A stretch of DNA of 64,000 bases. Source: an uncultured Verrucomicrobiae bacterium. GTDB taxonomy: Bacteria; Verrucomicrobiota; Verrucomicrobiia; Chthoniobacterales; UBA10450. Positions 11,180 through 62,674 of the stretch are shown piece by piece. Made by a program: the position numbers and the translations under genes. Within the stretch, counting starts at the first letter, position 1, and each line of letters begins with the position of its first letter. The notes beneath the pieces are model-generated. The model made no database searches, had not been told where the DNA came from, and saw nothing but the letters and a program-made list of their open reading frames with translations. The stretch is taken from positions 608,001-672,000 of the forward strand of contig CAVYXA010000001.1 of NCBI GenBank assembly GCA_963772365.1. The letters are read 5' to 3'.

Positions 11180-12994
11180 TTACATTTTTCGCCCGAATTT
11201 TTTTTCCAACTCGGCGGTGGAGATCTGGATCATGGTGGGGCGGCCATGCGGACAGCAGTAAGGCAGATCGCAGGCCAGCAGATCGCGAATTAGTTGTTCC
11301 ACTTCGGGAAACCGCAGCGGATCGTTTGCTTTGACAGCGTGACGGCAAACGGTGGTGGCAATCATTTCTTCTCCCAGCCGCAAAGCCGAACTGCTATTGC
11401 TGGCAGTTTTGAGATCGTCAATTACCTGTTGCATGAATTGAATCGGATCGGACGCTTTTAAAAACGCGGGCAGACTGTCGATCTTGAACGTGGTGGGTCC
11501 AAAGCTCTCGATCCCGACCCCCATCTTTTGGAGGATCGACAAGTTTCGTTCGACCCATTCGGCGTCACGCGGTGGCAGATCAAAAGTCTGCGGGATCAGC
11601 AACTTTTGCGACGGCACCCCCTGCTCTTCCATCCGGCGCCGCAATTCTTCGAACAAAATCCGCTCGTGAGCGGCATGTTGATCGACCAGCACAAGCCCTT
11701 GGGCGTTCTCCATCAACACGTAAAGCTTGTTCAAAACGCCGATGATCTGGAATTGCTGAGAAGCGGGGCGCGATTGTAGGGCAAGCGCATCGCTTGCTGG
11801 CTCCGACGGCTGCCCGTGTGGCAGGCGGAGCGCCTGCCCTACAATCGGCAATTGCTGGTCCAAAATTTCCTGCGCAGTCGTTTCCGGCCGCAGTTTTAGA
11901 TCGACAGTTGTAGCCTGAGGCGCCGACGCCAGCCCTTTAGATGCCATTACACGCGGATCAGGTCCGCGAAATTTTTCCTGCCAATCGGTGCGTACTTTTT
12001 CCAGTGTGCGTTGGACTGCCGCGACGATTGCCTCACGCACACCGTTAGGATCGCGAAAACGCACTTCGCGTTTCGCGGGATGAACGTTTACATCGACGAA
12101 CACGGGATCGAGCTGCACAAAAAGAAACGTGACGGGAAACTGCCCCTTCATCAGCGCGGTGTGATATCCCTCGCGCAGGGCCGATGTGATGAGCGGGCTT
12201 TCGACGGCGCGACCGTTTACAAAAACCAACTGCTGGGCCCGCGTTTGCCGGCTCAGGCCAGCTTGACCGATTAAACCCGTGATTCTCGGCGCGCCCGGCG
12301 GTCGCGCCCTACCAATCTCATTTACTTCGAGCAAACGATCGAGCAGCTCGTTGCCGTAGAGATCGCGAATACGATCATTCAGCGTCGCTGCCTGCGGAAG
12401 TTGAAACACGACGCGATCATCCCGGACAAAAGTGAACGCGATATGCGGATGCCCGATGGCTTGGAGATGCAACTGATGTTCAATGTTGCGGCTCTCCGTG
12501 TTTTCGGAGCGCAGAAATTTTCTTCGCGCGGGAAGATTATAAAACAACGAGCGCACTTCCACCTGCGTGCCGGCTGCTTCACCTCCGTCACGCACAGTGT
12601 CGATCTTGCCGCCGTTTACCACAATATCGGTTCCGGCGATCTCTTTCTGCTCTCGCGTTGTCAGGCGAAATCGGGCGACGCTGGCTATGCTCGGCAACGC
12701 TTCGCCGCGGAAACCGAGCGTGCCGACTGCTTGAAGATCATCGGCAGAACGGATCTTACTAGTCGCATGGCGCTCGAGCGACAGGAGTGCGTCGTCGCGA
12801 TCCATCCCACAGCCATCATCGACAACCCGAATGAGCGAAATACCGCCCCGCCGAATGAGGATGTCGATCTTACGAGCGCCGGCGTCGATGCTATTTTCGA
12901 CAAGTTCCTTCACGACTGACGCGGGGCGTTCCACTACTTCACCGGCCGCGACCTGGCTAGCGACTATTTCGGAGAGCAGTCGAATCCGGCTCAT
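11180..12994 (-). CDS. mutL: DNA mismatch repair endonuclease MutL
   Basis: AAGEVVERPASVVKELVENSIDAG, GFRGEAL, DQHAAHERILFE and CPHGRP motifs. Confidence 0.98.
   Translation of the reverse strand: MSRIRLLSEIVASQVAAGEVVERPASVVKELVENSIDAGARKIDILIRRGGISLIRVVDDGCGMDRDDALLSLERHATSKIRSADDLQAVGTLGFRGEALPSIASVARFRLTTREQKEIAGTDIVVNGGKIDTVRDGGEAAGTQVEVRSLFYNLPARRKFLRSENTESRNIEHQLHLQAIGHPHIAFTFVRDDRVVFQLPQAATLNDRIRDLYGNELLDRLLEVNEIGRARPPGAPRITGLIGQAGLSRQTRAQQLVFVNGRAVESPLITSALREGYHTALMKGQFPVTFLFVQLDPVFVDVNVHPAKREVRFRDPNGVREAIVAAVQRTLEKVRTDWQEKFRGPDPRVMASKGLASAPQATTVDLKLRPETTAQEILDQQLPIVGQALRLPHGQPSEPASDALALQSRPASQQFQIIGVLNKLYVLMENAQGLVLVDQHAAHERILFEELRRRMEEQGVPSQKLLIPQTFDLPPRDAEWVERNLSILQKMGVGIESFGPTTFKIDSLPAFLKASDPIQFMQQVIDDLKTASNSSSALRLGEEMIATTVCRHAVKANDPLRFPEVEQLIRDLLACDLPYCCPHGRPTMIQISTAELEKKFGRKM
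11771..11847. repeat. GTAG-type REPIN lying in frame inside mutL
   Basis: 13-bp terminal IR cgattgtagggca/tgccctacaatcg; arms GTAGG-GCAAGCG-cat-CGCTTGC and (reverse) GTAG-GGCAGGCG-ctc-CGCCTGCC. Confidence 0.88.
12288..12312 (-). repeat. Single GTAG-type REP lying in frame inside mutL
   Basis: Reverse complement reads GTAG-GGCGCG-accgccggg-CGCGCC; encodes GRARPPGAP. Confidence 0.7.
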
Positions 12995-16384: not shown

Positions 16385-17878
16385 TTAACGCGTGATCAAT
16401 ACATAGCCTCGATCTGGCGTCTGCTGTTGCGGCGCTGATTTCAATTCCGAAAGGGCCGCATCGTGAAGGTGGCGCATCAGATCCGGGGCCTGCCTGCGCG
16501 GCACCACCAGCGCGTCGAGATTGCCGCGGTTCCAATCCATGACGGCTTGATCCTGCGGAACGAAGTGTAATTTGCGCAAATAAAGGAGCAGCCCCTCGTC
16601 GCCGCCCCACATCGCTTCGTAGCGCCAATGCTTCTCTTGTGCTTGGGCACGAACCTGATTGCCAAAAATGACCAGCGCATTTCGATGATTTCGGTAACCG
16701 GCAACGACTTTGGCCAGTGTATAAACGCCCGTAAACAGGATCGACATCGCCAACGCGACTGCGCTCCAAACACGAACAGCCTCACGGCTCGGTTCAGTCC
16801 GCAGCGCGTGCGCCAGTTGTGCTGCCAGCAGCAAACAGAGCGGAGGAATAACGGGAAATATTCGGTCCACTCGCTTGGAAGGAATGAGCGACATCACCAG
16901 CAAACCGCCCAAACTCCAGAAAATCAGCCATAATGTTTCTGGCGAGATCCGTCGGAGCGCTTCGCGAAAGCTCCATCGAGCCGCACGAAGATCGACAATC
17001 GCCAGGCCAATCATAAGCAGACTCCAGGGGGCAAACTTATGAAACAAATGCGGAAGATAAAAATAGATCGGCTGCGGACGATGGACTGTTTCACCGAAGC
17101 GACCGATAAATTCGCGCATCACGACTTGATCGAAAAAATCGGGCTGCAATAAAATTCCGCCGATCGCCCAGATCAGAAAAATCCCGAGCGAAGCCACCCA
17201 GGGCCACCACGCGAGCCAGCCAAAACTGTAGCGGCGGTCTGTGACCGTCGCCGTTTTCGTGAAAAGATTTCGACGGTCACAGACCGCCGCTACAATCAGT
17301 CCAGGTAACAAAAACGCATAAACGATCGGGCCTTTAATCAGCATTGCAGCGGTAAGAAGAAAAAACTGAAGTTGTCGATCGCGTTTCTCCCAGGGGCGCT
17401 TTTCTCGAATATGAATCCAGATTTGCAGACCGATCAGGAAAATCACGAGCGCGAGCGGCATATCGGTCCGCACCAAACTGGCAAGGCGCGGCGTTAACAA
17501 ATTCAAGCCGAACGCGCTTAGAGCGATCAGGCCTGCCATTGGACCGTGGATCAAATTCGCAGCGCGATAGAGGAGGATCGACATCGCCATTGCAGATAGA
17601 ATGGATGGCAATCGCCAAGCCCAATCCCAAGAGCGTGTCGCAGCAAACAAGACGGCCGAGATCCACCCCACTAGTGGCGGCTTGGTTGCGACCTTTTCGT
17701 GCGGCGTCTGTTGATAAAACAGATGACCTTCCTTGACGATTTCAAACGAGGTATAAGCCTGCTTGGCTTGATCGTAGTCATCCAACTGCCAGGGCAGATT
17801 GGTCGCGAGGAACAGAATTCCAATGAGAAAACTGACGATCCAGAGCGTTCGTCGGTCTTCGAGAAAAGCTTTCGTCAT
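16385..17878 (-). CDS. ArnT/PMT-like GT-C glycosyltransferase
   Basis: DDYDQ, KPPL..W, RLPS, RTDM, LIKGP, H..P.YFY and SKR..RIFP motifs; multi-TM; alternative start at 17908. Confidence 0.85.
   Translation of the reverse strand: MTKAFLEDRRTLWIVSFLIGILFLATNLPWQLDDYDQAKQAYTSFEIVKEGHLFYQQTPHEKVATKPPLVGWISAVLFAATRSWDWAWRLPSILSAMAMSILLYRAANLIHGPMAGLIALSAFGLNLLTPRLASLVRTDMPLALVIFLIGLQIWIHIREKRPWEKRDRQLQFFLLTAAMLIKGPIVYAFLLPGLIVAAVCDRRNLFTKTATVTDRRYSFGWLAWWPWVASLGIFLIWAIGGILLQPDFFDQVVMREFIGRFGETVHRPQPIYFYLPHLFHKFAPWSLLMIGLAIVDLRAARWSFREALRRISPETLWLIFWSLGGLLVMSLIPSKRVDRIFPVIPPLCLLLAAQLAHALRTEPSREAVRVWSAVALAMSILFTGVYTLAKVVAGYRNHRNALVIFGNQVRAQAQEKHWRYEAMWGGDEGLLLYLRKLHFVPQDQAVMDWNRGNLDALVVPRRQAPDLMRHLHDAALSELKSAPQQQTPDRGYVLITR
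17227..17294. repeat. GTAG-type REPIN lying in frame inside the ArnT-like gene
   Basis: Perfect 24-bp IR tgtagcggcggtctgtgaccgtcg / cgacggtcacagaccgccgctaca with a 20-bp spacer. Confidence 0.92.
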
Positions 17879-61964: not shown

Positions 61965-61987
61965 TGTAGGGCAAGCTGACAGCCTCC
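61965..61987 (+). repeat. Degenerate single copy of the TGTAGGGCAAGC REP
   Basis: tgtagggcaagc matches the first 12 nt of the mutL-internal arm at 11775. Confidence 0.6.
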
Positions 61988-62617: not shown

Positions 62618-62627
62618 CTCGCTAATG

Positions 62628-62651
62628 TGTAGCGGCGGTCTGCGACCGTCG
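62628..62651 (+). repeat. Single intergenic copy of the TGTAGCGGCGGTC REP
   Basis: tgtagcggcggtctgcgaccgtcg, 23/24 identical to 17227-17250. Confidence 0.85.
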
Positions 62652-62674
62652 CAAACTTTGTCGCCCACCGTTCA

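What the first reader, a model, noticed from the sequence alone, without database searches (positions are those of the whole stretch)
11771..12312. Two different REP elements translated inside an intact mutL
Seen: a 77-bp inverted pair of GTAG-hairpin units (11771-11847) encodes IVGQALRLPHGQPSEPASDALALQS in the MutL interdomain linker. A different single GTAG-hairpin (12288-12312) encodes GRARPPGAP in the N-terminal half. The frame and all catalytic motifs are preserved, and a free relative of the first element sits intergenically at 61965. Known: GTAG-plus-hairpin REPs are substrates of RAYT (TnpA-REP) HUH nucleases and are normally extragenic; coding insertion is best known for Rickettsia palindromic elements. 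Inference: REPINs here invade permissive loops of core proteins. An out-of-frame insertion or excision in mutL could also act as a mutator switch (speculative).
Basis: partly seen in the sequence, partly recalled or inferred. Interest (0 to 1): 0.8.

Follow-up and report, generated by a model that had tools for sequence, protein, structure and literature searches.

The report
Palindromic repeats translated inside MutL
Two short hairpin repeats of the kind moved by REP-associated transposases sit in frame inside an intact DNA mismatch-repair gene of a soil bacterium, a known but little-studied habit, and their relatives recur at the same spots of DNA- and tRNA-handling genes in related genomes, where they are likely tolerated passengers whose ends are kept fresh rather than a mutation switch.

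Summary
Real, but of a known kind. Both elements are GTAG REPs with many genomic copies (100 and 39 units), in frame in an intact 604-aa mutL. Element 1's family flanks an intact RAYT gene; no RAYT for element 2 was found in this genome, one was in a relative. The copy at 61965 belongs to a third family. In-frame GTAG REPs in Verrucomicrobia, their lean to DNA-repair genes and the mutator idea are in Di Nocera 2013 (PMC3733652); mutL is not in its table. Added here: 22 of 88 related MutL linkers hold such hairpins (1.1 expected); element 1 is old, shared by 11 orthologues, with arms far more conserved at silent sites (0.83) than the gene (0.42); hosts are enriched for DNA replication/repair genes (12/50 vs 3/51 length-matched, p=0.012); tilS and a GH57 gene show the same pattern with clean absences in sister genomes. 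No support for a mutator switch: no frameshift at a REP in the mutL loci examined; no reads were listed. The scan earlier noted like cases in this genome (recG, lysA).

The parts
11180..12994 (-). mutL, intact, 604 aa (GHKL ATPase, transducer domain, variable linker, endonuclease-type C-terminal domain)
11771..11847 (.). Element 1: REPIN-like inverted pair of family-1 GTAG REPs, in frame, MutL aa 384-408, in the interdomain linker
11773..11798 (+). Element 1, REP arm read on the + strand (GTAG at 11776, 8-bp stem, 3-nt loop)
11799..11819 (.). Element 1, 21-nt spacer (18 nt in 9 of 11 orthologous copies)
11820..11845 (-). Element 1, REP arm read on the - strand (GTAG begins at 11842); identical to a main genomic variant
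12288..12312 (-). Element 2: single family-2 GTAG REP (hairpin with a bulge), in frame, MutL aa 228-236, predicted loop between strands 221-223 and 237-243; net about +4 aa
61963..61989 (+). Intergenic decayed REP of a third family; not a copy of element 1

Best explanation
Two GTAG REP elements of different families lie in frame in a loop and in the linker of an intact mutL, and they are likely tolerated passengers placed there by RAYT (TnpA-REP) activity, with the arms of the paired element likely kept close to the family consensus by continued turnover against the genome's other copies. Steps: (1) shown: repeat families, frame, intact motifs, a RAYT gene flanked by family 1. (2) inferred from known biochemistry: RAYT binds the GTAG hairpin on single-stranded DNA, nicks and transfers strands, which seeds copies at new sites. 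(3) inferred: only frame-keeping, stop-free copies in flexible protein segments survive selection; coding copies are depleted overall (21% of elements against 64.5% of the genome). (4) shown: element 1 has orthologues at the same site and frame in one clade; spacers have drifted like silent sites while arms have not. (5) inferred, about even odds: RAYT-started conversion rewrites the arms in place, and copies decay or are removed cleanly when a family wanes. No switching of MutL activity is needed.
For: Families: 100 units of family 1, 39 of family 2. RAYT: intact 161-aa frame with HUH-type HVH and the catalytic-type Tyr at G000:C1:1171327-1171809 between family-1 pairs, plus two broken copies likewise flanked; family-2 REPs flank a RAYT in G021. 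Position. Age: family-1 pair in the same frame and orientation in 11 of 92 linkers, all inside one 17-member clade, scores 24-73 against at most 5 for the other 81; 0 of 100 codon shuffles reached the score for the six tested; spacer identity 0.48 against at most 0.36 in 2000 shuffles, length 18 in 9 of 11, while the 37 pairs in G000 range 0-29 nt. DNA-level keeping: four-fold sites 205/247 identical in arms against 2709/6496 in the gene; tilS 126/160 vs 961/2141 and GH57 57/73 vs 732/1712. One orthologue (L187) has the two stem variants swapped with pairing intact. Arm score rises with family copy number: rho 0.72, p=0.02, n=10 (mutL), 0.68, p=0.09, n=7 (tilS), rank-perfect for n=5 (GH57). 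Coding copies are as fresh as intergenic ones in 4 of 5 families, slightly fresher in one.
Against: The copy-number prediction was only partly met: G042 has 55 copies but decayed arms, G043 and G044 have 14 and 12 copies but fresh arms; fragmented assemblies undercount repeats and kin are not independent. Carriers were picked by likeness to the family profile, and silent sites were counted only where the first two codon letters agree; both inflate the arm figure. Family 2 has no RAYT found in G000 (90% complete), yet element 2 is a perfect copy. Carriers are not monophyletic on the trees, so single insertion needs several clean losses. Enrichment of DNA and tRNA genes is not explained by neutrality alone. 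No RAYT activity, transcript or protein was observed.
Confidence: 0.6

Rival explanations
1. The arms are held by purifying selection on the nucleic-acid hairpin itself (mRNA stability, translation rate, or a protein-binding site), making these domesticated control elements in DNA-repair and tRNA genes.
For: Silent sites conserved in arms of three genes; stems keep pairing through double changes; fresh arms in low-copy genomes G043, G044; hosts skewed to DNA replication/repair (12/50 vs 3/51, p=0.012) and to DNA plus tRNA/ribosome handling (23/50 vs 4/51, p=1e-5, class chosen after seeing the list).
Against: Arms have decayed in G001, G010, G012, G023; close relatives lack the elements entirely in tilS, GH57, ftsY, mutS; different REP families occupy the same linker.
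Confidence: 0.18
2. The shared sites are insertion hot spots hit again and again, so fresh copies are simply recent independent arrivals.
For: Family-2 pair at the same place and frame of mutS in G000 and distant G005, absent in nearer relatives; family-2 peptide at the same MutL loop in L200; same ftsY site in G000 and G014 (unpublished genome) and, by residue number, in O. terrae; patchy carriers on trees. Likely true for these cases.
Against: For element 1 the orthologous spacers share length and sequence beyond chance; tilS carriers share extra flanking residues outside the REP ends.
Confidence: 0.12
3. Palindromes correct themselves by template switching during replication, so arms change slowly without any transposase.
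For: Stems keep pairing; the whole element forms a long imperfect hairpin. Mechanism recalled, not tested.
Against: The two arms usually stay different variants rather than becoming mirror images; self-correction would not hold them at the genome-wide consensus nor tie freshness to copy number.
Confidence: 0.07
4. The elements form a mutator switch: excision or out-of-frame insertion turns mismatch repair off and on.
For: mutL and mutS both carry REPs, mutS two insertions; REPIN excision is documented in Pseudomonas (PMC3116915, passages); switches in mutL exist by other means (PMC2955026, PMC4689407, listing only).
Against: No REP-linked frameshift in the mutL loci examined; losses seen between species restore the ancestral length exactly; element 1 has lasted past silent-site saturation; singlet excision was not found in the Pseudomonas reads.
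Confidence: 0.03

Closest known systems
Intragenic GTAG REPs of Opitutus terrae and other bacteria (Di Nocera et al. 2013, PMC3733652; read: passages, section 15 whole, first part of the discussion, part 1 of 3 of supplementary file 3)
   Same: GTAG-tagged hairpins, single or paired, translated in frame; two different families in one gene (O. terrae uvrA); lean to DNA synthesis and repair genes; several host classes shared with this genome (UvrA, DnaE2, ATP-dependent ligase, FtsY, PurL, 2-oxoacid E2, DNA methylase); mutator idea already voiced.
   Different: Other class of Verrucomicrobiota and other REP families; mutL, 'mismatch repair' and recG have 0 hits in the four supplements held as text. 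In the parts read the paper gives no length-matched test of the bias and no orthologue-level test of age or silent-site conservation.
REPIN-RAYT systems / REPtrons (PMC3116915, PMC3333891, bioRxiv 10.1101/2021.07.10.451892; passages read)
   Same: Inverted REP doublet with variable spacer; 5' GTAG; cognate HUH/Y1 nuclease gene flanked by its REPs; several REP-RAYT pairs in one genome.
   Different: Described as almost exclusively extragenic; here 55 of 267 elements are inside genes and persist at orthologous coding sites. The E. coli enzyme needs a stem mismatch; family-1 stems here are mostly perfect.
Rickettsia palindromic elements (RPE; as summarised in PMC3733652, originals not read)
   Same: Palindromic repeats translated in frame inside conserved proteins.
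   Different: RPE-1 is described there as longer; the short Rickettsia repeats are CGTC-type, for which that paper reports no dedicated transposase, whereas these are GTAG-type with RAYT genes.
mutL mutator switches: Salmonella repeat switch (PMC2955026) and SpyCI islands of Streptococcus pyogenes (PMC4689407, PMC4129442); search listing and abstract starts only
   Same: A repeat or mobile element at mutL.
   Different: Those alter or block MutL reversibly; here the frame and motifs are intact and no toggling was found.

Membership tests
GTAG REP | 5' GTAG tag followed by a short stem-loop | tested here: met
   both elements; (element 2 folds weakly alone, z=-1.7)
GTAG REP | dispersed multi-copy family, above chance | tested here: met
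   100 and 39 units, 0 on the reversed genome for these two profiles; pattern searches 65 and 18 matches, controls 0
GTAG REP | mainly extragenic | tested here: met
   154 intergenic + 38 at gene ends of 267; 55 firmly internal vs 64.5% of the genome (own gene calls). These two copies are exceptions.
REPIN (element 1) | two REPs in inverted orientation around a variable spacer | tested here: met
REPIN (element 2) | two REPs in inverted orientation | tested here: not met
   single unit; no partner above threshold nearby; the family does occur paired in mutS
REP-RAYT system, family 1 | RAYT gene with HUH and Tyr flanked by the same REP | tested here: met
   L005 intact, two broken copies
REP-RAYT system, family 2 | RAYT gene flanked by the same REP in this genome | tested here: inconclusive
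   none among 10 profile hits in G000 (genome 90% complete); present in G021
REP-RAYT system | RAYT binds, nicks and recombines the REP as single-stranded DNA | not testable with these tools
   shown for E. coli in PMC3333891; not for these proteins
Mobile insertion | insert absent from orthologues and bounded by the REP ends | tested here: inconclusive
   element 2: loop 27 residues vs mode 23 among 95 measured, a replacement rather than a clean insert; element 1: linker too variable to fix ends; clean presence/absence seen in tilS (+27/28 aa), GH57, ftsY (+18 aa)
mutL mutator switch | reversible loss of MutL function in the population | tested here: inconclusive
   no REP-linked frameshift across species; no reads to test within the population

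The most novel reading that the evidence does not exclude
In Chthoniobacterales, RAYT nucleases maintain REPINs in place inside essential genes: arms are rewritten from the genomic pool and elements are removed cleanly in frame over times long enough to saturate silent sites, with a real preference for DNA-replication, repair and tRNA enzymes. The MutL linker would then be a peptide segment repeatedly rebuilt from at least four REP families, and orthologous coding copies would give a built-in clock for measuring REPIN turnover.
Probability: 0.3. Interest if true: 0.75.

Novelty: new member of a known kind. Interest (0 to 1): 0.5.

Why it matters
How REPINs persist, and whether their presence in DNA-repair genes is chance, are open points in the papers read (PMC3733652 calls the repair-gene link tempting speculation). 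Coding copies at orthologous sites come with a neutral yardstick in the same gene, so arm turnover, clean loss and dependence on RAYT can be measured from genomes alone. This window supplies such a case, a first length-matched test of the repair-gene bias in one genome, and an example of a protein linker built from mobile hairpin DNA in an abundant group of soil bacteria. It does not supply a new kind of element or a mutator switch.

Tried and rejected
Reads for excision variants: none was listed; this is no evidence either way. 61965 as a copy of element 1: rejected. Chance hairpins: rejected. Recent private insertion for element 1: rejected. Protein-level selection as the cause of arm conservation: rejected because silent sites are conserved. 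Carriers as one clean nested clade: I expected it from the overlap of carrier lists, but the 2470-column tree and two gene trees did not show it (an IQ-TREE run timed out; the careful tree did not finish and the quick one was used). Copy number as a strict predictor of arm freshness: only partly met. A RAYT for family 2 in G000: not found; G010 and two G005 candidate intervals held none. Rows dropped: 19 of 75 in-ORF elements (gene under 200 aa, within 25 codons of the start, or score under 22) and one more, window 13898, as a likely false hit of a 3-sequence profile; 5 of 80 loci (two cut by contig ends, one frameshifted, two missing the anchor motif) and 5 duplicates; 11 of 99 had no linker anchor. 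Control genes were first scanned at a stricter cut-off, and the blanks of both sets rescanned at 1e-6. Literature searches listed no paper on REPs in mutL or on coding REPs in Chthoniobacterales; the library lacks most subscription papers, and two of six supplements and parts 2-3 of file 3 of PMC3733652 were not read (the term search covered four files). An earlier-findings word search gave nothing.

Full report
Setting. The window is G000:C1:608001-672000 of a 3.35-Mb, 90% complete genome. The closest MutL relatives are titled Chthoniobacterales, Spartobacteria or Verrucomicrobiota. mutL runs 11180-12994 on the minus strand, 604 aa, with both Pfam halves and its ATPase and endonuclease motifs (motif names are recalled).

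The two elements. 11771-11847 is an inverted pair of GTAG-hairpin units coding aa 384-408; 12288-12312 is a single GTAG hairpin coding aa 228-236. A model from 39 orthologues (mean pLDDT 68) puts the second in a loop between two strands and the first in the low-confidence linker, aa 357-408; against E. coli MutL the second faces a five-residue gap. Both belong to dispersed families: a blind search for GTAG plus hairpin gave 12 clusters, and profile scans kept 403 units in 267 elements, with 4 hits on the reversed genome. Family 1 has 100 units, family 2 has 39. The intergenic copy at 61965 belongs to a third family and is decayed.

Transposases. The genome has 9 Y1_Tnp matches. A profile built from six RAYT-like proteins gave 10 hits; five REP clusters each flank their own RAYT. 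Family 1 flanks one intact gene and two broken copies. None is flanked by family 2, but in G021 family-2 REPs flank a RAYT 41% identical to L004. From PMC3333891 (passages) such enzymes need the GTAG and hairpin, act on single strands, cut and transfer strands; that this holds here is inference.

Genome-wide habit. With my own gene calls, 154 elements are intergenic, 38 overlap a gene end and 75 lie inside a called frame; after dropping 20 doubtful ones, 55 lie inside 50 genes, 21% of elements against 64.5% of the genome, so coding copies are strongly depleted. They use several stop-free frames and both orientations, and are as close to consensus as intergenic copies. Pfam scans of the hosts give MutL, MutS, RecG, two DnaE-type polymerases, an ImuB-like protein, LigD, PolX, an Mfd domain, PolB, UvrA and FtsK (12 of 50) against 3 of 51 length-matched controls, counting one doubtful TIM barrel against my case (Fisher p=0.012). 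Adding a DNA methylase, four tRNA synthetases and six tRNA/ribosome modifiers gives 23 of 50 against 4 of 51 (p=1e-5), a class I chose after seeing the list. This is one genome, and controls were not matched for disorder or gene age.

What is known. Di Nocera et al. 2013 (PMC3733652) report GTAG REPs entirely within ORFs, most in Opitutus terrae (70 rows), note uvrA genes with two inserts, the lean to DNA repair, flexible linkers as the likely sites, and speculate on mutators. mutL is not in the supplements searched.

Orthologues of mutL. At the loop, 28 other sequences lack the REP peptide; among 95 measured loops the mode is 23 residues, G000 has 27 and only L200, with 33, starts with the same family-2 peptide. 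Element 2 is thus a small replacement, of uncertain age. The linker is a general sink: 22 of 88 carry a GTAG hairpin against 1.1 expected from codon shuffles, from at least four families, while the rest of the genes gave 7 hits in 142 kb (one of the 22, G014, is an unpublished genome). The family-1 pair itself is found in 11 of 92 linkers, all within one 17-member clade, always in the same frame; it is fresh in G000, G022, L205, L220, L234 and decayed in G001, G010, G012, G023. Shared spacer length and sequence point to one old insertion. Silent sites between these genes are 0.34-0.46 identical to G000, near saturation, yet silent sites in the arms are 0.83 identical against 0.42. The caveats on this figure are given in the Against line.

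Other genes agree. Of 30 exact family-1 loci fetched from G022 (of 35) those inside a gene with a G000 homologue were tilS and a GH57 gene, both at the site where G000 has the same element; of 29 family-2 loci from G005 the only such case was mutS, again the same site. tilS carries a 27-28-residue insert in 7 of 24 genomes and exactly the ancestral length in 17; GH57 carries it in 5 of 25 with data; arms again beat the gene at silent sites. ftsY has an 18-residue REP pair in G000 and G014 (unpublished) and not in 12 others read. Carriers are not monophyletic: G010, with decayed inserts, is sister to G043, which lacks them, in the joint tree and both gene trees (G043 holds two mutL copies, so its bin may be mixed). 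Clean loss, local recombination with REP-free alleles, or repeated insertion must therefore occur; I cannot separate them.

Mechanism. Most likely RAYT activity seeds REPs, selection keeps only frame-preserving copies in flexible segments, and the arms are then held near consensus at the DNA level, about even odds by conversion against the genomic pool, otherwise by selection on the hairpin. Arm freshness rises with family size (rho 0.72, n=10) but three genomes break the rule. The mutator switch lacks support: one frameshifted mutL in 80 loci, not at a REP, and no reads to test the population.

Verdict. A confirmed new instance of a described phenomenon, with added comparative evidence that makes REPIN persistence and the repair-gene bias testable. 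Claims resting in part on unpublished genomes: the G014 ftsY and linker cases, and the presence of G003, G008, G014 in the mutS alignment and pattern tallies.

Noticed in passing
L003 (G000:C1:529891-532605, - strand): recG carries a whole RAYT domain with HUH-type and Tyr motifs in frame between two REP-like ends. Already noted by earlier scan findings.
   Followed up: partly
L069 (G000:C1:1679133-1681751): mutS has two in-frame inserts: a family-2 REP pair at aa about 407-437 and a 26-aa insert at aa 154 with one related copy at C1:398050; the second is not a GTAG family of my census.
   Followed up: partly
L245 (G021:C4, about 128450-129790): A RAYT with two family-2 REPs before and four after lies in one open frame running into the next gene of what looks like a respiratory (alternative complex III-type, recalled) operon.
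   Followed up: no
window 17225-17296: A REP pair of another family (cluster 8) is in frame in the 497-aa PMT-type glycosyltransferase gene at 16385-17878.
   Followed up: partly
window 62626-62652: Single intergenic cluster-8 REP.
   Followed up: no
G000 genome-wide: The commonest 16-20-mers are a non-GTAG palindromic family with about 40 copies; related peptides of the VIPS type occur in at least 10 relatives' MutL linkers. Its mobiliser was not sought.
   Followed up: no
L085 (G000:C3:551679-554678) and L086 (G000:C4:33583-35712): An FAD-linked oxidase carries three REP elements of three families, and uvrA two pairs of two families.
   Followed up: no
L243:1501-3313: A relative's mutL is frameshifted in a GC-rich linker stretch without a REP; possibly an assembly error.
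   Followed up: partly
L246 and L247 (G005:C24 start, C2 start): The G005 assembly breaks exactly at the family-2 REP pair inside mutS, so such inserts can split genes in assemblies.
   Followed up: yes
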